In this document: in pieces, positions 55 through 14,050 of the stretch
Layout: every line of letters starts with the position of its first letter
How positions within the stretch are numbered: the stretch's first letter is position 1
From: a virus
Lineage: Duplodnaviria; Heunggongvirae; Uroviricota; Caudoviricetes
Length of the DNA: 15,184 nucleotides
Reading direction: 5' to 3' (one strand)
Virus record (IMG/VR): IMGVR_UViG_2516143081_000005
Position numbers and translations under genes: made by a program
Notes under the pieces: generated by a model
What the model was told of the DNA's origin: nothing
The model's database searches: none
Seen by the model: only the letters and a program-made list of their open reading frames with translations

Positions 55-639
55 TTACTCCCTGACAGGGTTCGTAGGCCACTCAATATCAGGTGCAGTT
101 GATGTATCAACACGGTTCAGCAACACCCGATACTTTTTCCAGGCTTCCAGCAATGAGGTTTCTTCCTCCGTTGCGATTTCCAGATCTACAGCATCCTGAA
201 GTGGCGCAATATGCTCACTGGCTACCTGCATCAGGCTGTTTTTTATTTCTTCCGCCTCTCGGATCCGGAACAGTTTTTCTGCTTCTGCATCTTTCACCCA
301 GGCTGTGCCGTTCCACTTCTGAAACTCCCCTTCCGGCGATAACCAGGTAACATTTTCCGGTAACGGACCGAGTTCAGAAATAAATAACTCGTCCCCTGAC
401 GCTACGTCATAAACCGTTTTACCCCGATGGTCTTCAACGAGATGCCACGATGCCTCATCACTGTTGAAAACAGCCACAAAGCCAGCAGGAATATCTGGTG
501 GTGCAATATCGGTACTGTTTGCTGGCAGACCTGTATGAGGCGGAATATATGCATCACCTTCACCAATAAATTCATTAGTTCCGGCCAGCAGATTATAAAT
601 TTTTATGGTCCGTGCTTGTTCACTCATTCTGAATGCCAT
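55..639 (-). CDS. tfa: Tail fibre assembly protein (lambda Tfa-like, 194 aa)
   Basis: ORF translation [34 protein letters not shown]... is near-identical over its full length to lambda Tfa as recalled. ATG at 639-637 overlaps the upstream stop (TAATG). Confidence 0.9.
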
Positions 640-824
640 TATGCAAGCCTCACAATATAGTTAAATGCGATGTTTTTGACGGTGTTTTCCGCGTTACCAG
701 CAGCGTTAACGGTGATGGTGTGTCCATGTGAGCCAATCGCAACGGAGTGCGTATGAGCACCAATACCGACAGTATGTGCGTGTGCACCTGCGCTTGCAGC
801 AGTGCCGGACAGTGAGTGGGTAAC
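639..824 (-). pseudogene. 3' remnant of a side tail fibre gene (about 60 C-terminal codons)
   Basis: Manual minus-strand translation gives ...[48 protein letters not shown], the conserved C-terminus of lambdoid side tail fibres. It runs straight on from the terminase-fragment stop at 825-827, with no start or N-terminal body. Confidence 0.6.
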
Positions 825-1913
825 TCAAGACCTGTTGCCCCCTGCGTATTGTCTGTCAGCGCGGTTATCCCCTTTCGTTTTCATCCAGTCTTTGACAATC
901 TGCACCCAGGTGGTGAACGGGCTGTACGCCGTCCAGATGTGAAAGGTCACGCTGTCCGGCGGCTCAATCTCTTCACCGGATGACGAAAACCAGAGAATGC
1001 CATCACGGGTCCAGATCCCGGTCTTTTCGCAGATATAACGGGCATCAGTGAAGTCCAGCTCCTGCTGGCGGATGACGCAGGCATTATGTTCGCAGAGATA
1101 AAACACGCTGGAGGGATCATCCGGCGTCCATTTGAGGCCAAACGGCGTCTCTTTATCGCCAAATTTAAGGTACTGCTCCTCCCCGCAGTGCGGGCAGGCA
1201 ACATGAAAACGCATAAAATGCGGGGATTCACTGGCTGCACGCTCAATCTGACAGGTGCCTCTCACTTTGGGCGTGGAGCCACGGATGGACTTTGGCCAGA
1301 CCGAGCCTTCAATACGTTTGTCACCCAGGAACGTCGGAGAGCCTTCCTGTTCAATATCCTCATCAAAGGCAGCAAGTTCATCATAACCCGCCACATCCAC
1401 CGACTTTTCACGGTAGTTTTTTGCCGCTTTACCGCCCAGGCACCAGAAACCACGCCCATTGGTGAAACGCTTCATGGTGAGCGTGTTATCCCGGTGCTTT
1501 TTGCCATACCACGGGGCCAGCGCCAGCAGCGACGGAATATCGCGGATGGTCGGCTCAACGTGGGTTTTCATAAAGTTCTCGGCATCACCATCCGTCGGCA
1601 ACCAGATAAGGGTGTTGCGCTGCTTATGCTCTATAAAGTAGGCATAAACACCCAGCAGCATTTTGGAATAACCGACACGGGCAGACTTCACCACATTCAC
1701 CTCACGGATGTAGTCGCTGCCCATCGCATTCATGATGGCCCGCTGAAAGGGCAGTGTTTCCCAGCGCCCTTCCTGGTATGCGGATTCTTTCGGGAGATAG
1801 TAATTGGCATCCGCCCATTCAACGGCGGTCTGTGGCTCCGGCCTGAACAGTGAGCGAAGCCCGGCGCGGACAAAATGCCGCAGCCTGTTAACCTGACTGT
1901 TCGATATATTCAC
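825..1913 (-). pseudogene. aaaD: Terminase large subunit (lambda gpA) N-terminal fragment, truncated at about residue 348
   Basis: Translation MNISNSQVNRLRHFVRAGLRSLFRPEPQTAVEWADANYYLPKES... matches lambda gpA from residue 1 to about KTKGD, then diverges (NRADRQYAGGNRS*). GTG start and 26-nt overlap with Nu1 as in lambda. The C-terminal nuclease/ATPase part (lambda gpA is about 641 aa) is absent. Confidence 0.85.
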
Positions 1914-2433
1914 TCAGCAACCCCGGTATCAGTTCATCCAGCGCGGCTGCTTTGTTCATGGCTTTGATGATATCCCGTTTCAGGAAATCAACATGTCGGT
2001 TTTCCAGTTCCGGAAAACGCCGCTGCACCGACAGGGGAATCCCGTCGAGAATACTGGCAATTTCACCTGCGATCCGCGACAACACGAAAGTACAGAATGC
2101 GGTTTCCACCACTTCAGCGGAGTCTCTGGCATTCTTCAGTTCCTGTGCGTCGGCCTGCGCACGCGTAAGTCGATGGCGTTCGTACTCAATAGTCCCTGGC
2201 TGGAGATCTGCCTCGCTGGCCTGCCGCAGTTCTTCAACCTCCCGGCGCAGCTTTTCGTTCTCAATTTCAGCATCCCTTTCGGCATACCATTTTATAACGG
2301 CGGCAGAGTCATAAAGCACCTCATTACCCTTGCCACCGCCTCGCAGAACGGGCATTCCCTGTTCCTGCCAGTTCTGAATGGTACGGATACTCGCACCGAA
2401 AATGTCAGCCAGCTGCTTTTTGTTGACTTCCAT
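1888..2433 (-). CDS. nohD: Terminase small subunit Nu1 homologue (181 aa), apparently intact
   Basis: Translation MEVNKKQLADIFGASIRTIQNWQEQGMPVLRGGGKGNEVLYDSAAVIKWYAERD... is essentially lambda Nu1 at full length (181 aa). ATG at 2433-2431. Confidence 0.9.
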   Translation of the reverse strand: MEVNKKQLADIFGASIRTIQNWQEQGMPVLRGGGKGNEVLYDSAAVIKWYAERDAEIENEKLRREVEELRQASEADLQPGTIEYERHRLTRAQADAQELKNARDSAEVVETAFCTFVLSRIAGEIASILDGIPLSVQRRFPELENRHVDFLKRDIIKAMNKAAALDELIPGLLSEYIEQSG

Positions 2434-2439
2434 TGCTCA

Positions 2440-2660
2440 TTCCACGGACAAAAACAGAGAAAGGAAACGACAGAGGCCAAAAAGCTCGCTTTCAGCACCT
2501 GTCGTTTCCTTTCTTTTCAGGGGGTATTTTAAATAAAAACATTAAGTTACGACGAAGAAGAACGGAAACACCTTAAACCGGAAAATTTTCATAAATAGCG
2601 AAAACCCGCGAGGTCGCCGCCCCGTAACCTGTCGGATCGCCGGAAAGGACCCGCAAAATG
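2440..2660 (-). other. cos packaging site (cosB - cosN - cosQ), lambda-type, apparently intact
   Basis: Reverse complement of 2434-2622 reads GGGCGGCGACCTCGCGGGTTTTCGCTATTTATGAAAATTTTCCGGTTTAAGG...GGAAACGACAGGTGCTGAAAGCGAG..., matching the lambda left end (cosB with Nu1/IHF sites) with a few substitutions. 2623-2700 matches the lambda right end (...GATCCGACAGGTTACG). Confidence 0.85.
2611..2622 (-). other. cosN: 12-nt cohesive-end sequence (GGGCGGCGACCT on the minus strand)
   Basis: Plus-strand AGGTCGCCGCCC at 2611-2622 is the reverse complement of the lambda cohesive end, flanked by CGTAACC (cosQ side). Confidence 0.8.
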
Positions 2661-2821
2661 ATAATAATTATCATCTACATGTCACAACGTGCATCTACGC
2701 CATCAAACCACGTCAAATAATCAATTATGACGCAGGTATCGTATTAATTGATCTGCATCAACTTAACGTAAAAACAACTTCAGACAATACAAATCAGCGA
2801 CACTGAATACGGGGCAACCTC

Positions 2822-3016
2822 ATGTCAACGAAGAACAGAACCCGCAGAACAACAACCCGCAACATCCGCTTTCCTAACCAAATGATTGAACAAATTAACA
2901 TCGCTCTTGAGCAAAAAGGGTCCGGGAATTTCTCAGCCTGGGTCATTGAAGCCTGCCGTCGGAGACTAACGTCAGAAAAGAGAGCATATACATCAATTAA
3001 AAGTGATGAAGAATGA
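2822..3016 (+). CDS. ylcI: Small basic protein (64 aa), YlcI-like; possibly ribbon-helix-helix DNA-binding
   Basis: ORF MSTKNRTRRTTTRNIRFPNQMIEQINIALEQKGSGNFSAWVIEACRRRL...: basic N-terminus, a short beta-strand-like RNIRFP then two helices, which resembles an RHH fold (inference). Size and position between cos and the ybcW-like gene fit ylcI of DLP12 (from memory). Confidence 0.55.
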   Translation: MSTKNRTRRTTTRNIRFPNQMIEQINIALEQKGSGNFSAWVIEACRRRLTSEKRAYTSIKSDEE

Positions 3017-3116
3017 ACATCCCGCGTTCTTCCCTCCGAACAGGACGATATTGTAAATTCACTTAATTACGAGGGCATTGCAGTAATTGAGTTGCAGTTT
3101 TACCACTTTCCTGACA

Positions 3117-3144
3117 GTGACAGACTGCGTGTTGGCTCTGTCAC
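3117..3144. terminator. Hairpin between convergent ylcI-like and ybcW-like genes; possible bidirectional terminator
   Basis: gtgacaga (3117-3124) pairs with tctgtcac (3137-3144) around a 12-nt loop. No strong U-tract on either side. Confidence 0.3.
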
Positions 3145-3180
3145 AGGCTAAATAGTTTGAATGATTAGCAGTTATGGTGA

Positions 3181-3387
3181 TCAGTCAACCACCAGGGAAT
3201 AATCCTTCATATTATTATCGTGCTTCACCAACGCTGCCTCAATTGCTCTGAATGCTTCCAGAGACACCTTATGTTCTATACATGCAATTACAACATCAGG
3301 GTAACTCATAGAAATGGTGCTATTAAGCATATTTTTTACACGAATCAGATCCACGGAGGGATCATCAGCAGATTGTTCTTTATTCAT
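3181..3387 (-). CDS. ybcW: Uncharacterised prophage protein (68 aa), YbcW-like
   Basis: ORF of 68 aa with ATG at 3387-3385 and GGAG about 9 nt upstream. Size and position match ybcW of DLP12 and the small ORF near the right end of lambda (from memory). Confidence 0.65.
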
Positions 3388-3672
3388 TTTGTCGCTCCAT
3401 GCGCTTGCTCTTCATCTAGCGGTTAAAATATTACTTCAAATCTTTCTGTATGAAGATTTGAGCACGTTGGCCTTACATACATCTGTCGGTTGTATTTCCC
3501 TCCAGAATGCCAGCAGGACCGCACTTTGTTACGCAACCAATACTATTAAGTGAAAACATTCCTAATATTTGACATAAATCATCAACAAAACACAAAGAGG
3601 TCAGACCAGATTGAAACGATAAAAACGATAATGCAAACTACGCGCCCTCGTATCACATGGAAGGTTTTACCA

Positions 3673-4373: not shown

Positions 4374-4667
4374 ATGAAAAAAATGCTACTCGCTACTGCG
4401 CTGGCCCTGCTTATTACAGGATGTGCTCAACAGACGTTTACTGTTCAAAACAAACCGGCAGCAGTAGCACCAAAGGAAACCATCACTCATCATTTCTTCG
4501 TTTCTGGAATTGGGCAGAAGAAAACTGTCGATGCAGCCAAAATTTGTGGCGGCGCAGAAAATGTTGTTAAAACAGAAACCCAGCAAACATTCGTAAATGG
4601 ATTGCTCGGTTTTATTACTTTAGGCATTTATACTCCGCTGGAAGCGCGTGTGTATTGCTCACAATAA
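4374..4667 (+). CDS. borD: Bor lipoprotein (serum-resistance moron), 97 aa
   Basis: MKKMLLATALALLITGCAQQ... has a signal peptide with lipobox LITGC. The full sequence matches lambda Bor as recalled. Confidence 0.9.
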   Translation: MKKMLLATALALLITGCAQQTFTVQNKPAAVAPKETITHHFFVSGIGQKKTVDAAKICGGAENVVKTETQQTFVNGLLGFITLGIYTPLEARVYCSQ

Positions 4668-6441: not shown

Positions 6442-7539
6442 ATGAAAAAATTAACAGTGGCAATTTCTGCTGTAGCTGCATCAGTACTGATGGCGATGTC
6501 TGCTCAGGCAGCTGAAATTTATAATAAAGACAGTAACAAGCTGGATCTGTACGGGAAAGTTAATGCTAAGCACTACTTCTCCTCTAATGATGCAGATGAT
6601 GGTGATACTACTTATGCCCGTCTTGGCTTCAAAGGTGAAACCCAAATCAACGATCAGCTGACTGGTTTCGGTCAGTGGGAATATGAATTCAAAGGCAACC
6701 GCGCTGAATCTCAAGGTTCCTCCAAAGACAAAACCCGTCTTGCATTTGCAGGCCTGAAATTCGGTGACTACGGCTCAATCGATTACGGCCGTAACTACGG
6801 TGTAGCATACGACATCGGTGCGTGGACTGACGTTCTGCCAGAATTCGGTGGCGATACCTGGACCCAAACAGATGTGTTCATGACTGGTCGTACCACTGGT
6901 GTTGCAACCTATCGTAACAACGACTTCTTTGGTCTGGTTGATGGTCTGAACTTTGCTGCTCAGTACCAAGGCAAAAACGATCGTAGCGATTTCGATAACT
7001 ACACTGAAGGTAACGGTGATGGCTTCGGTTTCTCTGCTACCTATGAATACGAAGGATTCGGTATCGGTGCAACTTATGCGAAATCTGATCGTACCGACAC
7101 TCAAGTTAATGCAGGGAAAGTTCTTCCTGAAGTATTTGCTTCCGGTAAAAATGCAGAAGTTTGGGCCGCAGGTCTGAAATATGACGCTAACAACATTTAC
7201 CTGGCCACTACCTATTCTGAAACCCAGAATATGACTGTATTTGCTGATCACTTCGTTGCTAATAAAGCTCAAAACTTCGAAGCTGTTGCACAATATCAGT
7301 TCGATTTCGGTCTGCGTCCGTCCGTTGCTTACCTGCAATCTAAAGGTAAGGATCTTGGAGTATGGGGCGATCAGGACTTAGTCAAATATGTTGATGTAGG
7401 TGCAACCTATTACTTCAACAAAAATATGTCTACTTTCGTTGATTACAAAATCAACCTGCTTGACAAAAATGACTTCACTAAAGCACTCGGTGTAAGCACT
7501 GATGACATCGTTGCTGTAGGTCTGGTTTACCAGTTCTAA
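6442..7539 (+). CDS. nmpC: Outer-membrane general porin (OmpC/OmpF/PhoE family, NmpC-like), 365 aa, apparently intact
   Basis: [23 protein letters not shown] | [16 protein letters not shown]... has a signal peptide with AQA cleavage site, the porin N-terminal signature and the C-terminal ...VGLVYQF beta-barrel motif. ATG at 6442 preferred over the ORF-track start at 6382. Confidence 0.9.
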
Positions 7540-8984: not shown

Positions 8985-9147
8985 GATTCCTCCTTGCTGC
9001 CAGTCGCAACCATTTTTTATCAACCAGGCTGGCGGTATATCCGAGCAGTGTTGGTATTTCGGAAGGCTTCAGCTCCGGTTTACGCTTACGACGATTTGGT
9101 ACTCTGTAGATGTGTCCGTTCATGACACGAATAAGCGGTGTAGCCAT
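8977..9147 (-). CDS. ninE: NinE-like small protein (56 aa); not in the ORF track
   Basis: Manual translation [56 protein letters not shown]. Start overlaps the ybcN stop (TAATG); 3' end overlaps the ybcO start by 8 nt. Assignment by size and nin-region position; I could not recall the lambda NinE sequence reliably to confirm. Confidence 0.65.
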   Translation of the reverse strand: MATPLIRVMNGHIYRVPNRRKRKPELKPSEIPTLLGYTASLVDKKWLRLAARRNHG

Positions 9148-9602
9148 TACGCCTCCTGTTTGTCGCGGAGCTGCTGGAACTCGCAGCTCTGCGGAATAGT
9201 CAGGTGGCAGCCAATATTCATCGCCCAGGCTTCAACCTTACACAGGAAGACATACATCTCTCCGGTATCAAGATCGGAGGTATGGCGTAACGACTGGATA
9301 GTGGTGATATCACCGGTTACGACATCAACCAGGTCTTTGGTTTCATAACCGAGATATGTGTGTTTGAGAGCATCTTTTACCCAAGCTGGAGTGGCGAACG
9401 TTTTACCCTTGCTGATGAGGTATTCACTGATTTCGCTGTACCACATGTGGCTGAGTGCATTCTGGGAAAGACTGCGTCTCTCGCGCCACGGTTTAAGCAC
9501 CATGCGAAAGCATTTGCCGTCCTCCAGATAAGGCTGGATCTGCCGACCGATAGCGGTGAAGTTACCGCGATGCAATTTGATACCATCTTGTGGGAGGTTC
9601 AC
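9147..9602 (-). CDS. ybcN: NinB-family protein YbcN (151 aa), GTG start
   Basis: (M)[29 protein letters not shown]... GTG start at 9602 with GGAGG upstream. Size and position match YbcN/NinB. Confidence 0.8.
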
Positions 9603-9700
9603 GCTTCACCTCCGCAGAGATCAAACGCTGGATGCAAAATATCGCAGGTGCATTTCTGCATCTGTGAATGGAGAAGAGAGGTTGGATTGTATGTGCGCAT
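9599..9700 (-). CDS. ylcH: Small protein (33 aa), YlcH-like; not in the ORF track
   Basis: Manual translation [33 protein letters not shown]. Stop overlaps the ybcN GTG start (GTGA). Assignment by size and position from memory. Confidence 0.45.
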
Positions 9701-9796
9701 AAACGTCCCCGTTTAGCGCAGAAGTCACCGGAGTTGTTCAGGCTCCAATGGCATGATTATGGCTGGTTGATTATTGGAAATCAAATGTGCTGAAAA

Positions 9797-10306
9797 TTAG
9801 TCTGCCAAGTCTTCCTCAGTCGCAACTGGGTAATTCCAAATATCAAAAAAAGCTATAGCCTCCTGCCATTTGCTCCATAAGTTATCAAGTACTTGTGTAG
9901 GTTCCGTACTTTTAAAAACAGAATCAGCCGCATCACCGTTATGAACTTCCTCGTACAGTTCCATTATTAGCAGATTAACAAAGTACTGTTTCAACATTAA
10001 TGCCTGATTACCTTCTTTCTGCTGGCTATCCTGCTTGATGATCTCCATCGCCCGTACTAGGCACCTGATGATATCCGCTGCATCATTAACGCTCCATTCA
10101 GATCCGCGCTTATCTTTAGCTGATGAATTGGCTCTCTCAGCGCAAGCCTTTAAAGACTCATAAAGGTAAACTCTATTTTGTAGCTGCAGCGCTTTTTTTG
10201 ACGTGTACCAACTTGCAAGCGCCGACCCCGCTGCGGCTAATGTGCCAAACGCAGAAATACCTGCTGCTATTGCACTTAAGTCGGCACTGTCAAAGTTCCA
10301 CATCAT
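9797..10306 (-). CDS. Hypothetical protein (169 aa) with one N-terminal transmembrane helix and an acidic helical C-terminal domain
   Basis: MMWNFDSADLSAIAAGISAFGTLAAAGSALASWYTSKK... has a hydrophobic stretch around residues 10-33. ATG ATG start with AAGGTG Shine-Dalgarno 5 nt upstream. Own upstream region after a terminator. I recognise no family. Confidence 0.6.
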   Translation of the reverse strand: MMWNFDSADLSAIAAGISAFGTLAAAGSALASWYTSKKALQLQNRVYLYESLKACAERANSSAKDKRGSEWSVNDAADIIRCLVRAMEIIKQDSQQKEGNQALMLKQYFVNLLIMELYEEVHNGDAADSVFKSTEPTQVLDNLWSKWQEAIAFFDIWNYPVATEEDLAD

Positions 10307-10488
10307 CGTTACACCTTATATAAATACCCCTCAGTAATATCCAATAAGGTATGTGCACAATCAATATAATTTTATCCGTATCGGCACATAGCGATTTGAA
10401 CGCTACTGGTAATGGTATATTTTAGATTATATCGTCCAGTTTACAGCACCCGTATTTTATGAAATGGACTCGCATATTACCCAAAAAA

Positions 10489-10521
10489 TGCCAGCACTTC
10501 CGTCATCGTAGAATGCTGGCA
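10489..10521 (-). terminator. Rho-independent terminator on the minus strand downstream of the 107-aa gene
   Basis: tgccagca (10489-10496) pairs with tgctggca (10514-10521), with inner ttc/gaa pairing. On the minus strand it is followed by UUUUUUGG (reverse complement of 10481-10488). Confidence 0.5.
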
Positions 10522-10540
10522 GTATTTCTAACTAGTGACT

Positions 10541-10864
10541 TTATTGGAACAGATTCTGACGGAAATATGGTAACACTCGACTCCACTTATCATCCAGCCA
10601 CGGCTGGAATTTTACATGTGCCGTTTCTCTGGCGAGGATTGCTCGCGCTCTGTTGAGTATCTGGGGATATTCTTGCTCGATAGAAGTAAAGCGGCCGGCT
10701 TCGCGGTGCTCCGCAACCTGAAGTAGTGGAGTAACGTTCTGGCAGGCAGTTAACATCACATCACCTGCTCGCCATAACCAAGCACGTGCACAAAGTTTGT
10801 TATCAGTGAATTGTTTTGTGATTGGGTATTGTTGAACTGCTAGAACGAGAACGCCAGCATCCAT
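10541..10864 (-). CDS. Hypothetical protein (107 aa), no recognisable family
   Basis: ORF with ATG at 10864 and AGGGA about 7 nt upstream. It sits between the serine recombinase and the 169-aa membrane protein and is followed by its own terminator. Codon usage looks ordinary; no homology recognised. Confidence 0.5.
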   Translation of the reverse strand: MDAGVLVLAVQQYPITKQFTDNKLCARAWLWRAGDVMLTACQNVTPLLQVAEHREAGRFTSIEQEYPQILNRARAILARETAHVKFQPWLDDKWSRVLPYFRQNLFQ

Positions 10865-10975
10865 TGGCAGTCCCTATAGTAAAACCATAGCTCAGGACGC
10901 TTCGTTCAGGATAGATAATTTTATTGTACTTACCTAACTTTCTTACTATAGCACGGTTGAAAAAGTGATTATTAC

Positions 10976-12502
10976 TCAAAAATAAACCTCACCATCAACC
11001 ATATATTTGAGAGTACTTATCGCCTGCTGGGCGGATATTGTTTTCATTAAAGGATAGTGTTTAAAAACAATGCCATTCATAAAATAGATATCACAGGTTT
11101 TATTATCTGTATTGATTATGATTTTTTCGAATGTTTTATAGGCAAGTGTACGACATAGCTCTCGCCCATTTTTACTGGTTAAGTCAATAGCATGAAAATC
11201 ACCAAGTGAACTCACCGCTTTACTCTTCAAAGTTTTTAATGATACAGAAGCCCTTCGTAATTCCTTATCTAATACTCTGATTTTTTCTGCTATAGCGGTA
11301 ACTTCAGGCGCAACAGATAATGCAGCAATTAAATTATTAATTTTCATCTGGAGCTCAATAATTTTCAACTCTAAAGTTTCATTAGCATCTTTCTTGTTTT
11401 CAACTGGTTGGATTTTACTACAATTAAAAAGCAACTCATTAATGATATTATAATCAACCAAATCTCTCTTTATTGATGGCCTGTCACATCGATGCAGTCT
11501 TCTCATCGGACAAACATAATAGCCATGCAAACTTCCAGATACCGCATGAACAATCATGGTATTACCACAAGCCTCGCACTTCATAACTGTTCGAAGTAGA
11601 TTTATCAACATAGGATTTTTGCTACTATTGCTAATACCAAAAGGTGCCAACCGAATTTCCTGCACAGCGTAAAACAAATCATCTGATATGACTCTGGGAT
11701 AATAGCCAGCGATTTCACTTATTCCTTTACCTCTTGCACGATATGAAGGTACGCATATACCTATCAGAGCTTTATTCGCTAATAATTTTTCAATTACAGA
11801 AGGTCCCCATGCACTTTCTTTTCCTGAGAAATTCTTTACAGCATGATCATTTAAATACTTGGCTATTGCATTCAATGAGCGCCTTTCCATCCTGAGTTTA
11901 AAAATTAGCTCAATAGTTTTCACCCTGTCGGGGTCTGGAACAAAAGCCGTTCTTTTGTCATCCAATGAGAGCCATCTCGGACAAGACGCCGTCATAATCG
12001 TGCCTGACTCCAGTGCATCCTGCCGTTTTTTCTTCCATGATAATTTAACCCGACTTGACTTTATCTCGCTTTCTTCATTTGCCCTTTGTGCTATAAGTAT
12101 GGCTTTTATTAATGAATATGGCTCATTCAATGAGTCAATATTATAGACTGTATTATCGCAAAGAGTTATAACATCAATACCGTGATTCAAAATCAATTTC
12201 AGACGCTCAATCGCTTCACCGACTTTTTCTCTTGAAAGTCTGTCCAGACTTTCAACTAACAATGTAGTCCCTGGCAATATATAACCATGTTCTATAGCAT
12301 CTAAAAATTCCGAAAAAGCTCCTGATTGTGCATGCTTTCCATTGAATGCGCTTAACCCCAAATCTTCATACGTTACGGTATCAAGGTAATAATCACTATT
12401 TACCTTTAGCCATTCAGTAATAAGCCTTCTCTGGCGGTTTAATGAATCACCAGACATCTGACCTGGTGATGAAAATCGCATATATGCTATGGCTTTTTTC
12501 AT
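10976..12502 (-). CDS. ybcK: Large serine recombinase (resolvase/invertase catalytic domain plus recombinase domain and zinc-ribbon), 508 aa
   Basis: N-terminus MKKAIAYMRFSSPGQMSGDSLNRQRR has the serine-recombinase catalytic motif (Y-x-R-x-S-S...Q). C-terminal region has a Cys cluster (CEACGNT...YYVCPMRRLHRCDRP) typical of the zinc ribbon of large serine recombinases. Length matches YbcK. Confidence 0.9.
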   Translation of the reverse strand: MKKAIAYMRFSSPGQMSGDSLNRQRRLITEWLKVNSDYYLDTVTYEDLGLSAFNGKHAQSGAFSEFLDAIEHGYILPGTTLLVESLDRLSREKVGEAIERLKLILNHGIDVITLCDNTVYNIDSLNEPYSLIKAILIAQRANEESEIKSSRVKLSWKKKRQDALESGTIMTASCPRWLSLDDKRTAFVPDPDRVKTIELIFKLRMERRSLNAIAKYLNDHAVKNFSGKESAWGPSVIEKLLANKALIGICVPSYRARGKGISEIAGYYPRVISDDLFYAVQEIRLAPFGISNSSKNPMLINLLRTVMKCEACGNTMIVHAVSGSLHGYYVCPMRRLHRCDRPSIKRDLVDYNIINELLFNCSKIQPVENKKDANETLELKIIELQMKINNLIAALSVAPEVTAIAEKIRVLDKELRRASVSLKTLKSKAVSSLGDFHAIDLTSKNGRELCRTLAYKTFEKIIINTDNKTCDIYFMNGIVFKHYPLMKTISAQQAISTLKYMVDGEVYF

Positions 12503-12757
12503 GGTGACACCTGCTAAAGTATGCTTTTATAAACCTTAGTGGTGAGATATGATTTTTGTTTAATTTTTATTTAAAAAGACAATTAAGGTCACATTATCTT
12601 GAATATACAACAATAATCGTATTGCAATTTTCTTACACCATAATCTTGAAAGCACAAAAGAATGAATAAAAACTAAAGACATTAACAAAAAGCATAAAAC
12701 GAGGCCCATATAAATATACGAGCCTCCATATTTTAGTCGTTTAAAAACAAATTATTT

Positions 12758-13090
12758 TTAATGTGGTGTGCTTCGTGACAATAAATTAATAACCAACACA
12801 CCGGCACAAATCAACATCATGCCTATAATGGCTGGCAGGTCCAACCGTTGGCCGAAAAATCCCCATGATAGTAAGCTAATCAGGACAATACCGACTCCTG
12901 ACCAGATAGCATAAGCAATCCCTGTAGGAATATAAGCCAGCGTCTGAGCTAATAACCAGAATGATGCACAATAACAAATAATTGTACCAACAGATGGCCA
13001 TAACCGTGTAAAACCTTCTGAAAACTTCATTAAGGTTGTACCAATGACCTCTGCAAGTATTGCACCACCAAGATAAATATAAGGATTCAT
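12758..13090 (-). CDS. emrE: Small multidrug resistance (SMR) efflux transporter EmrE (110 aa)
   Basis: MNPYIYLGGAILAEVIGTTLMKFSEGFTRLWPSVGTIICYCASFWLLAQTLAYIPTGIAYAIWSGVGIVLISLLSW... is the EmrE sequence with four TM helices. ATG at 13090; ORF is open from 13144. Confidence 0.9.
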   Translation of the reverse strand: MNPYIYLGGAILAEVIGTTLMKFSEGFTRLWPSVGTIICYCASFWLLAQTLAYIPTGIAYAIWSGVGIVLISLLSWGFFGQRLDLPAIIGMMLICAGVLVINLLSRSTPH

Positions 13091-13157
13091 AGCATATTCT
13101 TTCCTGTTCAAACTGGAGAGAATTGTACTACAGTTTGAACTCAACTCACCTGTTTCA

Positions 13158-13460
13158 TCATTGTGTACCCATTGATGTTCTTTTATATACCCTCAATACC
13201 CGTTTCATCGCGGCACTCTGGCGACACTCCTTAAAAATCAAATTCGTGCTCACCTTTCCTTCCCATTCTTCTCTGGTAGCGAACCGATAATACACCGTTC
13301 GCCAGACCTTACCATCAACGACCAGGATTCCTGCCCGCGCCATTTTAGCCGCAGCCTGATTTATGCTGGTTACCGTTGCGCCTGTTACCGCGGCAACGTC
13401 CTGCGCACAGAATTTCTTATGAGTCCCCAGGTAATGAATAATTGCCTCTTTGCCCGTCAT
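13158..13460 (-). CDS. ren: Ren-like protein (100 aa)
   Basis: MTGKEAIIHYLGTHKKFCAQDVAAVTGATVTSINQAAAKMARAGILVVDGKVWRTVYYRFATREE... is near-identical to lambda Ren. Start overlaps the P stop (ATGA) as in lambda. Confidence 0.85.
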   Translation of the reverse strand: MTGKEAIIHYLGTHKKFCAQDVAAVTGATVTSINQAAAKMARAGILVVDGKVWRTVYYRFATREEWEGKVSTNLIFKECRQSAAMKRVLRVYKRTSMGTQ

Positions 13461-14050
13461 ACCCTTGCTCCTTTCAGCCCAAACTTAGCTTTGATTTCTG
13501 CGATCTTCGCCAGAGCCTGTGCACGATTTAGAGGTCTACCGCCCATGACAGGAAGTTGTTTTACTGGTTCAGGTATAGCCTCACCACGGTTAATTCGTGC
13601 GGTCATACAGGACAGTTCATCGGCAGCCTTGCGCCGTAATTCCGCGTCAGTCAACGCATTGGCCCGCATGTTCTGATACAGGTTGGTAACCAGCCAGTAG
13701 TGCGCGTTTGATTTCCACGGATAAGACTCTGCATCCGGATACAGCCCGCGCTTCCGGCAATACTCGTAAACCATATCAACCAGCTCGCTGGCGTTTGGCA
13801 GCCCGGCGGTAACGGATGCTTCTTCCCGGCACCAGGCGACAAACTGCCCGGGTGATGGCAGGAATGGTCGATTCTGCCGACGGGCTACGCGCATTCCAGC
13901 GTTAACCTGTTCCATTGTGGTGATCCCGTTTTCCCGAAAAGCCAGCACCCACTGGCGGCGGATTTCGTTCAGTTCATTCTGGTCACGGTTAGCCAGGCTC
14001 GCCGGGAAAGTTGCCAGTAACTGGCTGAACACACCGTTGATGATCTGCGC
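13457..14050 (-). pseudogene. peaD: Replication protein P (helicase loader) C-terminal fragment, lacking about the first 36 residues
   Basis: From ...[26 protein letters not shown]... to the C-terminus the translation matches lambda P. The first 28 residues of the ORF ([28 protein letters not shown]) are unrelated and are encoded antisense to the integrase 5' end. Confidence 0.8.

What the first reader, a model, noticed from the sequence alone, without database searches (positions are those of the whole stretch)
9701..10975. Uncharacterised two-gene cargo module (107-aa protein plus 169-aa single-pass membrane protein) in a prophage accessory slot beside a serine recombinase
Between the conserved nin-region genes (ybcN/ylcH) and the ybcK recombinase, where I recall E. 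coli K-12 DLP12 carrying ybcL and ybcM, this window has two different genes with no family I recognise. One is a 107-aa soluble protein with its own rho-independent terminator (10489-10521). The other is a separately promoted 169-aa protein with one N-terminal TM helix and an acidic helical C-terminal domain. A small cytoplasmic protein paired with a membrane-anchored protein in a variable prophage slot is a common layout for superinfection-exclusion, abortive-infection or other defence/moron functions. This is the best candidate here for an undescribed system, but the function is unknown from sequence alone.
Basis: partly seen in the sequence, partly recalled or inferred. Interest (0 to 1): 0.7.

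Follow-up and report, generated by a model that had tools for sequence, protein, structure and literature searches.

The report
Antirepressor remnant beside orphan membrane-protein cassette
The supposed two-gene module is two unrelated things: a broken leftover of a phage antirepressor-like gene, and next to it a single-gene cassette for a small membrane-anchored protein of unknown function that lambdoid prophages carry in a swap-prone accessory slot.

Summary
Both ORFs exist, on the minus strand: 107 aa at 10541-10864 and 169 aa at 9797-10306. The terminator at 10489-10522 is real. They do not form a module.

The 107-aa ORF is the 3' remnant of a Bro-N + P22_AR_C antirepressor-like gene annotated "Rha". 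It keeps only the P22_AR_C domain. Its ATG is fortuitous and lies out of the ancestral frame. The ORF carries an internal stop in O104:H4 and is eroded further in the 4A7 phage group.

The 169-aa gene is a separate swap cassette of about 720 bp (9789 to about 10511). It belongs to a small Enterobacterales family (PHROG 1779, about 35 clusters at 50% identity) under strong purifying selection. The family sits in accessory early regions of lambdoid prophages and P1-like phage-plasmids, with changing neighbours.

The protein has a conserved weakly hydrophobic N-terminal helix whose flanking charges predict N-out/C-in. Its acidic all-helical domain is therefore predicted to be cytoplasmic and ends in a conserved DEDLxD tail. 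No Pfam, NCBIfam, PADLOC, PDB or fold match was found. A promoter-like element travels with the gene.

The slot is variable: empty, ybcL/ybcM, an esterase, a HEPN pair or a 118-aa ORF. The wider ren-ninB interval carries PD-lambda-1 in sibling phages.

My best guess is a lysogen-expressed exclusion or abortive-infection protein. This is unproven. Interest is modest.

The parts
9797..10306 (-). 169-aa gene. An alternative start at 10303 would give 168 aa, as in phage PhiR5_1. It is an orphan family (PHROG 1779) and the only real cargo of the finding.
   Evidence: ORF. phrog_1779 at 1e-102, with nothing in Pfam, NCBIfam or PADLOC. Purifying selection, with pS 0.77-0.88 against pN 0.20-0.31 versus homologues of about 50-66% protein identity. 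Annotated as WP_000990013.1.
10208..10279 (-). Codons 10-33 (LSAIAAGISAFGTLAAAGSALASW). This is a weakly hydrophobic helix rich in Ala, Gly and Ser, predicted to be an N-out/C-in membrane anchor.
   Evidence: A hydrophobic 19-mer sits at the same place in 32 of the 33 family members (in the 288-aa P0042 it lies at residues 141-163). Kyte-Doolittle means are 1.5-2.5. The N flank has net charge 0 to -4 and the C flank is usually positive. The 288-aa member P0042 places this helix as the fourth hydrophobic segment.
9800..9820 (-). Codons 163-169 (TEEDLAD-COOH). This is a conserved acidic C-terminal tail with low model confidence, so probably a flexible binding motif.
   Evidence: T163, E165, D166, L167 and D169 are invariant among close homologues. 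The motif [TS]-D-x-D-L-x-D is kept in most distant members. pLDDT is below 50.
10336..10364 (-). Promoter-like element that travels with the gene: -35 TTGATT (10364-10359), a 17-nt spacer, and -10 GATATT (10341-10336). The Shine-Dalgarno sequence AAGGTG lies at 10317-10312.
   Evidence: The core TGGATATTA is invariant and TTGnnT sits at a fixed spacing in the window, L007, L008 and L010. The block is 49-71% identical, against 35-44% at third codon positions. At 8/12 it falls below the scanner's threshold.
9789..10511 (.). Extent of the exchangeable single-gene cassette: the gene plus about 200 bp of upstream AT-rich DNA.
   Evidence: Homology to prophages carrying other cargo stops at 9785-9788 on the ninB side and resumes at 10512, 10559 or 10695 on the other side. 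The cassette is present in 181 of 5426 E. coli genomes.
10489..10522 (-). Intrinsic terminator of the rha-type gene. It separates the two ORFs.
   Evidence: GC-rich stem followed by U6; -20.3 kcal/mol, z = -2.3. Also present after the full-length rha of PhiR5_1.
10541..10864 (-). 107-aa ORF. It is the 3' remnant of a Bro-N + P22_AR_C antirepressor-like ('Rha') gene and keeps only the P22_AR_C domain.
   Evidence: Pfam P22_AR_C at 1.1e-12. Full-length relatives of 249 and 202 aa carry Bro-N + P22_AR_C. It is 81% identical to residues 101-198 of the 202-aa protein. In-frame stops lie upstream. It has an internal stop in O104:H4.
10852..10880 (-). Junction between rha-derived DNA and the low-GC emrE-ylcJ-ybcK block. 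It contains a 1-nt deletion and a fortuitous ATG (10864-10862) that lies out of the ancestral reading frame.
   Evidence: Alignment A5. Megablast and blastn homology to rha alleles ends at 10851 or 10863. GC content drops to 0.34-0.39 from here.
10976..12502 (-). ybcK, a large serine recombinase. It is context only and not part of the cassette.
   Evidence: Resolvase + Recombinase + Zn_ribbon_recom. Annotation.
9599..9788 (-). Conserved ninB-side border of the slot: putative promoter (-35 at 9784-9779, -10 at 9761-9756), an inverted repeat, and orf33/ylcH (9599-9700).
   Evidence: Phage 82 record X92588 annotates these features. The promoter scan hits the same site at 9/12. Shared by all compared lambdoid prophages except lambda itself.

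Best explanation
Anatomy (about 0.9 confidence). The interval holds two independent pieces.

(1) The 107-aa ORF is a relic. An ancestral Bro-N + P22_AR_C antirepressor-like gene, annotated 'Rha', lost its 5' half where the low-GC emrE-ylcJ-ybcK block now abuts it. A 1-nt deletion and a chance ATG leave an open 107-codon frame that encodes only the P22_AR_C domain. The terminator after it belonged to the original gene.

(2) The 169-aa gene is a self-contained single-gene cassette with a moron-like layout. It carries its own conserved sigma-70-like promoter element and Shine-Dalgarno sequence. It lies in the ren-ninB accessory interval immediately upstream of the orf33/ninB border.

Mechanism (inferred, about 0.35 confidence). 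The protein inserts in the inner membrane through its short acidic N-tail and its weakly hydrophobic Ala/Gly/Ser-rich helix, in N-out/C-in orientation. This leaves a roughly 130-residue acidic helical bundle and a flexible DEDLxD C-terminal tail in the cytoplasm. I propose it is expressed from its own promoter in the lysogen. At the cytoplasmic face of the membrane it would bind a protein partner. That partner would be either an incoming phage's DNA-injection or early protein, or a host membrane protein that the phage needs. The effect would be single-protein superinfection exclusion or abortive infection. No enzymatic motif is present, so binding or sequestration is more likely than catalysis.
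For: Remnant status:
- P22_AR_C is the only domain; full-length homologues carry Bro-N + P22_AR_C.
- In-frame stops lie upstream of the ATG.
- The alignment shows the 1-nt deletion and an out-of-frame ATG.
- The junction coincides with a GC drop.
- Only part of the remnant survives in the 4A7-type phages.
- It has an internal stop in O104:H4.
- Its 90% cluster contains forms of 62-107 aa.

Independence of the 169-aa gene:
- Cassette borders lie at 9788/9789 and at about 10511-10558.
- Diverged homologues sit next to DUF551 or unknown genes, never next to P22_AR_C.
- The rha 3' end occurs with other cargo.
- The gene is intact and identical while its neighbours are pseudogenes in O104:H4.

It is a real gene: synonymous sites are saturated while pN is 0.20-0.31.

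Membrane anchor:
- The hydrophobic helix and the charge asymmetry hold across the family.
- A four-helix variant exists.

Helical acidic domain and tail.

Own promoter-like element conserved beyond the neutral level.

Accessory or defence context:
- The slot is empty in O157:H7.
- It holds ybcL/ybcM in K-12, an esterase in 4A7, a HEPN pair in PEC240 and a 118-aa ORF in Turner.
- PD-lambda-1 (PADLOC 2e-198) lies two genes away in PhiR26_1 and in common E. coli prophages.
- Family members persist in small prophage remnants.
Against: - There is no functional evidence of any kind.
- No hit to any PADLOC model, and no detectable relationship to SieB, RexB or HEPN.
- The gene is co-oriented with the pR early operon. 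In other phages it lies only 72-108 bp from the upstream gene, so it could simply be a delayed-early lytic gene.
- The promoter-like element scores 8/12 and is absent from L012, L014 and L020.
- The slot also carries non-defence cargo (emrE, an esterase, ybcL/ybcM), so guilt by association is weak.
- The helix of this allele is at the low end of hydrophobicity.
- The 107-aa frame is open in both the window and Turner, with dN/dS about 0.22. Residual function of the fragment is therefore not excluded. The same value is also expected if the body was exchanged with full-length alleles.
Confidence: 0.4

Rival explanations
1. The 169-aa protein is a delayed-early lytic-cycle accessory protein transcribed from pR under N antitermination. 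It would be a membrane-tethered factor that modulates host takeover, counter-defence, replication or lysis timing. It would not be a lysogen-expressed protective gene.
For: - It always has the same orientation as the early operon. It usually sits between the replication genes and ninB/DUF1367, with short intergenic gaps. One distant member lies in the pL operon after N.
- It is present in plaque-forming phages PhiR5_1 and PhiR26_1.
- An acidic domain with an acidic tail could mimic nucleic acid or bind host proteins, as early phage proteins often do (inference).
Against: - A promoter-like element is conserved with the gene.
- In this lineage a terminator precedes the cassette.
- The gene is kept intact in decayed prophages that can no longer grow lytically.
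- It is absent from most related phages (181 of 5426 genomes), so it is not needed for lytic growth.
Confidence: 0.3
2. The 169-aa protein is a host-directed moron unrelated to phage-phage conflict. For example, it could change envelope physiology, stress tolerance or colonisation, like bor/iss, lom or emrE elsewhere in the same prophage.
For: - The same prophage carries emrE, bor/iss and a porin.
- The slot holds ybcL/ybcM or an esterase in relatives.
- The protein has a membrane anchor.
Against: - The bulk of the protein is predicted to be cytoplasmic, not surface-exposed.
- There is no enzymatic or transporter signature.
- The family is confined to temperate-phage early regions and phage-plasmids.
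Confidence: 0.2
3. One reading: the 107-aa and 169-aa proteins form one two-component system, with a cytoplasmic sensor or antitoxin plus a membrane effector.
For: - Within E. coli, 176-178 of the 181 cassette copies lie next to an rha-type 3' end.
- The 107-aa frame is open in the window and in Turner, with dN/dS about 0.22.
Against: - The adjacency in E. coli reflects recent common descent (at least 95% identity). In most copies it is to a full-length 202- or 249-aa gene, not the 107-aa fragment. The window arrangement is found in only 66 of 5426 genomes.
- An intrinsic terminator and a recombination boundary separate the two ORFs.
- Diverged homologues lack any P22_AR_C neighbour.
- The 107-aa ORF has an internal stop in O104:H4 beside an intact 169-aa gene.
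- The ATG is fortuitous.
Confidence: 0.04
4. The 169-aa ORF has no function. It is a hitch-hiking or selfish ORF kept only by linkage.
For: No known domain or fold. The family is small.
Against: - Synonymous sites are saturated while the protein is conserved, and length and architecture are kept from 22% to 98% identity.
- The termini and the upstream element are conserved.
Confidence: 0.05

Closest known systems
Bro-N / P22_AR_C antirepressor-like proteins of lambdoid phages (annotated 'Rha'; Pfam PF02498 + PF10548)
   Same: The 107-aa ORF is 81% identical to residues 101-198 of a 202-aa member and matches P22_AR_C at E = 1e-12. It keeps that gene's terminator.
   Different: It lacks the Bro-N domain and the native start. 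Its reading frame was restored by a 1-nt deletion with a chance ATG. It is a fragment, not a member in working order.
Prophage morons: independently transcribed accessory genes such as lambda bor/lom and HK97 gp15 (general concept reviewed in PMC3594210)
   Same: It is a single gene showing presence/absence polymorphism between otherwise collinear phages. Its GC content is lower than the flanking nin genes (0.44 against 0.51). A promoter-like element travels with it, and a terminator lies just upstream.
   Different: No terminator of its own was demonstrated. Expression in lysogens is untested. It lies in the early-right region rather than the late or tail region, where the classic morons sit.
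Membrane-associated prophage exclusion proteins: P22 SieA (PMC10883804), lambda/P22 SieB, lambda RexB
   Same: It is a small inner-membrane protein encoded by a temperate phage outside the structural genes. A single gene would be sufficient in principle.
   Different: No sequence or profile similarity was found: hhalign probability is below 1% to lambda SieB and RexB, and there is no Pfam hit. Those proteins are generally described as having several membrane-spanning segments (recalled, not tested here), whereas this one has a single weak anchor and a large cytoplasmic domain. No phenotype is known.
Weakly hydrophobic N-terminal anchors: SAR domains of phage endolysins and pinholins, and Pf3-coat-type N-out insertion (from general knowledge, not tested here)
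   Same: The helix is 47-74% Ala, Gly, Ser and Thr across the family (74% in this allele), like SAR domains. The short acidic N-tail and basic C-flank resemble N-out/C-in proteins that insert without a signal peptide.
   Different: SAR proteins are N-in/C-out with a periplasmic catalytic domain. Here the charge bias and the 288-aa variant predict the opposite topology. Release from the membrane is pure speculation.
PD-lambda-1 (DUF4041) defence gene, and HEPN-containing pairs found in the same interval of sibling prophages
   Same: They occupy the same ren-ninB accessory interval. PD-lambda-1 is two genes from a 98.8%-identical copy of the 169-aa gene. A HEPN pair replaces the cassette in PEC240.
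   Different: There is no homology. hhalign to the HEPN protein gives probability below 1%. The family has no conserved Rx4-6H motif. Foldseek hits to HEPN toxins have E of 0.5 or more and TM-scores up to about 0.33.

Membership tests
Bro-N/P22_AR_C antirepressor-like ('Rha') proteins (107-aa ORF) | C-terminal P22_AR_C domain | tested here: met
   PF10548 at E = 1.1e-12, 48.3 bits against a cutoff of 22.4.
Bro-N/P22_AR_C antirepressor-like ('Rha') proteins (107-aa ORF) | N-terminal Bro-N (or other DNA-binding) domain in the same polypeptide | tested here: not met
   It is absent. In-frame stops lie upstream. The full-length 202- and 249-aa relatives have Bro-N.
Bro-N/P22_AR_C antirepressor-like ('Rha') proteins (107-aa ORF) | Native start codon and reading frame | tested here: not met
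   The ATG at 10864 aligns out of frame with the ancestral gene, and a 1-nt deletion restores the frame.
Two-gene operon or defence system (107 aa + 169 aa) | Co-occurrence of both genes across diverged relatives | tested here: not met
   Homologues in L007-L012, L014-L021, L028 and L029 have no P22_AR_C neighbour. The rha end occurs with other cargo.
Two-gene operon or defence system (107 aa + 169 aa) | Co-transcription and mutual dependence | tested here: not met
   An intrinsic terminator lies between them. The 107-aa ORF is a pseudogene beside an intact 169-aa gene in O104:H4.
Moron (independent prophage transcription unit) | Presence/absence between otherwise collinear phage genomes | tested here: met
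   Cassette borders lie at 9788/9789 and about 10511-10558. It is present in 181 of 5426 genomes, against about 2957 that share the flank.
Moron (independent prophage transcription unit) | Own promoter | tested here: inconclusive
   A conserved TTGnnT-17-GATATT element is present. It scores only 8/12, was not reported by the scanner, and no transcript data are available.
Moron (independent prophage transcription unit) | Own terminator | tested here: inconclusive
   No canonical terminator lies between 9797 and 9789. The next hairpins belong to the conserved orf33 border.
Moron (independent prophage transcription unit) | Expression in the repressed prophage | not testable with these tools
   This needs RNA-seq or a reporter assay in a lysogen.
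Known anti-phage defence proteins (PADLOC-DB v2.0.0) | Significant HMM match | tested here: not met
   No hit for the window protein at E up to 1. Only scattered single-member hits above E = 1e-3 appear across the 33 family members.
SieB / RexB exclusion proteins | Sequence or profile similarity | tested here: not met
   hhalign probability is below 1% against lambda SieB and RexB. No Pfam hit.
HEPN domain proteins | HEPN profile match and a conserved Rx4-6H motif | tested here: not met
   No Pfam HEPN hit. hhalign probability is below 1%. No conserved His appears in alignment A2. Foldseek hits are non-significant.
Single-pass (bitopic) inner-membrane proteins | One conserved hydrophobic segment of about 19-24 residues with a flanking charge bias | tested here: met
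   All 33 members have one, with Kyte-Doolittle means of 1.5-2.5. The N flank is acidic or neutral and the C flank is usually basic. This allele is marginal (1.59, Hessa sum +2.7).
Single-pass (bitopic) inner-membrane proteins | Demonstrated membrane localisation and topology | not testable with these tools
   This needs fractionation or PhoA/LacZ/GFP fusions.

The most novel reading that the evidence does not exclude
PHROG 1779 would be a new single-gene, prophage-encoded anti-phage protein. It would be tethered to the cytoplasmic face of the inner membrane by a weakly hydrophobic N-out anchor. It would use an acidic helical domain and a conserved DEDLxD C-terminal peptide to trap a component of an infecting phage, or a host factor that phage needs. 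It would share no ancestry with SieA, SieB, Rex or any catalogued defence family.
Probability: 0.3. Interest if true: 0.55.

Novelty: new member of a known kind. Interest (0 to 1): 0.3.

Why it matters
If the 169-aa protein proves to be an exclusion or abortive-infection factor, it would add one more small orphan family to the prophage defence repertoire. It would also mark the ren-ninB interval of DLP12-like phages as a defence-carrying hotspot comparable to the P2/P4 hotspots. That interval already holds PD-lambda-1, a HEPN pair and emrE. The gene is present in pathogenic lineages, including O104:H4 2011C-3493.

As it stands, the main value of this check is corrective. It removes a false 'two-gene system', identifies one member as a gene fragment, and reduces the candidate to a 720-bp single-gene cassette that is easy to clone and test.

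Tried and rejected
- Pfam, NCBIfam, PHROGs and PADLOC scans of both proteins. Only P22_AR_C (107 aa) and PHROGs of unknown function were found.
- Pfam and PADLOC scans of all 33 family members. These returned noise only.
- A profile search of PDB sequences. Nothing below E = 4.
- The afdb50 library was unavailable.
- hhalign of the family against lambda SieB, lambda RexB, the PEC240 HEPN protein and the Turner 118-aa cargo. No relationship was found.
- An Rfam scan of 9000-13500 at E up to 1. Nothing was found, so there is no known sRNA in the AT-rich spacer.
- Literature searches for the accessions, PHROG ids and phage names. No paper mentions them. Searches for a described lambdoid ren-ninB defence hotspot found none.
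- dN/dS of the rha fragment (0.22-0.25). I considered it as evidence for function and judged it uninformative, because the body can be exchanged with full-length alleles.
- A simple insertion of a ybcK element into rha. I rejected this because no 5' half of rha lies on the other side of the block.
Full report
WHAT IS THERE

The window is a DLP12-like lambdoid prophage. Over the finding (9603-10975) it is 100% identical to E. coli 88-3493. All early-right genes lie on the minus strand in this order: ren, emrE, ylcJ, ybcK (10976-12502), a 107-aa ORF (10541-10864), a 169-aa ORF (9797-10306), orf33/ylcH (9599-9700), ybcN/ninB (9147-9602), ninE, ybcO and rusA. A hairpin followed by U6 lies 20 nt after the stop of the 107-aa ORF. 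Its folding energy is -20.3 kcal/mol, z = -2.3. The physical observation is therefore correct.

THE 107-AA ORF IS A GENE FRAGMENT

- It matches Pfam P22_AR_C at E = 1.1e-12 and anti-repressor PHROGs.
- In the plaque-forming phage PhiR5_1, the collinear gene is a 249-aa 'Rha' protein. In prophage PEC240 it is a 202-aa protein. Both have Bro-N + P22_AR_C.
- The window ORF is 81% identical to residues 101-198 of the 202-aa protein.
- The frame upstream of the ATG is full of stop codons.
- DNA homology to rha alleles ends at 10851-10863. At that point GC content falls from 0.47 to 0.34-0.39, the composition of the emrE-ylcJ-ybcK block.
- A nucleotide alignment shows residual similarity for about 15 more bases. 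It also shows a 1-nt deletion, and an ATG that derives from a CTG read in a different frame from the ancestral gene.
- Phage Turner has the identical junction. The 4A7 phage group keeps only 10695-10975, followed by an esterase gene.
- In O104:H4 2011C-3493 the ORF carries an internal stop. Its 90% cluster includes forms of 62-107 aa.
- dN/dS of 0.22-0.25 against other alleles does not rescue it. The body can be exchanged with intact rha genes of other prophages.

THE 169-AA GENE IS A SEPARATE SINGLE-GENE CASSETTE

Borders and distribution:
- Prophages with other cargo share the ninB-side flank up to 9785-9788. Homology resumes at 10512 (PEC240), 10559 (Turner) or 10695 (4A7).
- The cassette occurs in 181 of 5426 complete E. 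coli genomes. The window's ybcK-remnant-cassette arrangement occurs in 66.
- The commoner arrangement is PD-lambda-1/DUF4041, a small ORF, a full-length 202-aa Bro-N/P22_AR_C gene, then the cassette.

Size and placement of the family:
- HMMER over 1.84 billion representatives found only 35 clusters at E of 1e-3 or better. All named members are 'hypothetical' proteins from Escherichia, Citrobacter, Kluyvera, Pantoea and Scandinavium. A tblastn hit also places a member on an Enterobacter plasmid.
- In diverged members the gene is again co-oriented with the early operon. It usually sits just upstream of ninB or its analogue DUF1367, but beside DUF551 or unknown genes.
- One member lies in a pL operon after N. 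Another lies in a roughly 4-kb prophage remnant.
- Others are on P1-like phage-plasmids next to phd/doc, and on a 51-kb Enterobacter lambdoid plasmid.
- None has a P22_AR_C neighbour.
- In O104:H4 the protein is intact and identical, while the 107-aa ORF, ybcK, emrE and rusA are all pseudogenes.

PROPERTIES OF THE PROTEIN

- Synonymous sites are saturated (pS 0.77-0.88) while pN is 0.20-0.31 against homologues of about 50-66% protein identity. This is a gene under purifying selection.
- Every family member has one hydrophobic helix rich in Ala, Gly, Ser and Thr, at about residues 8-32 in all but the 288-aa variant. The N-tail is acidic or neutral and the C-flank is usually basic. This predicts an N-out/C-in anchor.
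- This allele is marginal (Kyte-Doolittle 1.59).
- A 288-aa variant places three further hydrophobic helices in front of this one. That arrangement fits the same topology.
- The remaining roughly 130 residues are acidic (pI 4.75). They model as a helical bundle at pLDDT 81.5.
- The last residues form a flexible conserved [TS]-D-x-D-L-x-D tail.
- No Pfam, NCBIfam, PADLOC or PDB sequence match exists for the protein or for the family.
- Fold searches return only generic helical bundles.
- Profile comparison excludes SieB, RexB and HEPN.

EXPRESSION SIGNALS

The consensus scanner found no promoter scoring 9/12 or better in the 234-bp AT-rich spacer. However, TTGATT-17-GATATT (10364-10336), with the invariant core TGGATATTA, lies at a fixed distance from the start codon in four lineages. 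In those lineages third codon positions are only 35-44% identical, while this block is 49-71% identical. This conserved cis element is best read as the gene's own promoter. That is an inference. It is missing in three other lineages.

CONTEXT

- In lambda itself ren and ninB are only 73 bp apart.
- In O157:H7 nothing lies between ybcK and orf33.
- Between ybcK or the rha-type gene and orf33, other prophages hold ybcL/ybcM, an esterase, a HEPN pair (weak PADLOC candidate hit PDC-M28A), a 118-aa ORF or this cassette. The wider ren-ninB interval also carries emrE-ybcK or PD-lambda-1.
- This is a real accessory hotspot, but its cargo is mixed. Association with defence is suggestive, not diagnostic.

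VERDICT

The two-gene system is rejected.

My preferred mechanism is a lysogen-expressed, membrane-tethered binding protein that acts in superinfection exclusion or abortive infection. I hold it at about 0.35. A delayed-early lytic accessory role is nearly as likely, at about 0.3. Nothing here would surprise a specialist. It is a catalogued PHROG of unknown function in a typical moron position. Interest is therefore modest, but the 720-bp cassette is a clean target for a cheap phage-challenge test.

Noticed in passing
window 10852-13184 (emrE, ylcJ, ybcK): A low-GC block (0.27-0.40, against about 0.50 in the flanks) replaces what PhiR5_1 and PhiR26_1 carry between ren and rha, and lambda has none of it. 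Its ninB-side edge differs between lineages: 10937 in K-12, 10910 in O157:H7, and about 10852-10880 here. It looks like a cassette linked to the large serine recombinase. It was not a simple insertion into rha, because no 5' half of rha lies on the other side.
   Followed up: partly
window 9599-9788; copies at L005 6343-6480 and L027 4502-4599: The conserved border upstream of ybcN carries a putative promoter, an inverted repeat and orf33, as annotated in phage 82 record X92588. A 98-138-bp copy of this border recurs upstream of the rha-type gene in PEC240 and PhiR26_1. It may act as a recombination linker that flanks exchangeable cargo.
   Followed up: partly
L027 2691-4193 (phage PhiR26_1); L031 and L032 (E. 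coli P276M and B2): A bona fide PD-lambda-1 / DUF4041 defence gene (PADLOC E = 2e-198) lies on the opposite strand in the same ren-ninB interval. It is two genes from a 98.8%-identical copy of the 169-aa gene.
   Followed up: yes
L005 4222-5018 and L006 2874-3670: In other prophages the cassette position holds an overlapping pair: a 138-aa HEPN protein (Pfam 3e-06; PADLOC candidate PDC-M28A at 1.8e-07) and a 133-aa protein with no hits. This may be a toxin-antitoxin or abortive-infection pair.
   Followed up: partly
L028 4920-5384 (plasmid pS51_2); L029 4887-5390 (Enterobacter plasmid); L007, L010: Family members occur on P1-like phage-plasmids directly upstream of phd/doc. A DUF551 gene is the immediate upstream neighbour in L007, L010 and L029, and lies a few genes upstream in L028, often with Ead/Ea22-like genes nearby. 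Whether DUF551 and this family are functionally linked was not examined.
   Followed up: no
protein P0042 (288 aa): A family member with a 137-residue N-terminal extension containing three additional hydrophobic helices. This makes the family helix the fourth hydrophobic segment of a larger membrane protein.
   Followed up: partly
L033 3520-4272 (E. coli FELIX_MS533): Homology to the cassette ends 2 bp upstream of the start codon, so the Shine-Dalgarno sequence and the promoter-like element are gone, and an IS1 transposase gene starts about 56 bp upstream. The ORF is still intact, while the neighbouring ybcN has an internal stop and the replication genes are deleted.
   Followed up: no
window 4374-4667 (+) and 6442-7539 (+): The prophage also carries a bor/iss serum-survival lipoprotein gene and an intact nmpC/ompC-like porin gene. 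In the K-12 record the porin gene has an IS5 immediately next to it. The window differs from strain 88-3493 by a small indel (a 16-bp coordinate offset) somewhere between window positions about 4370 and 6440, so it is not identical to that genome throughout.
   Followed up: no
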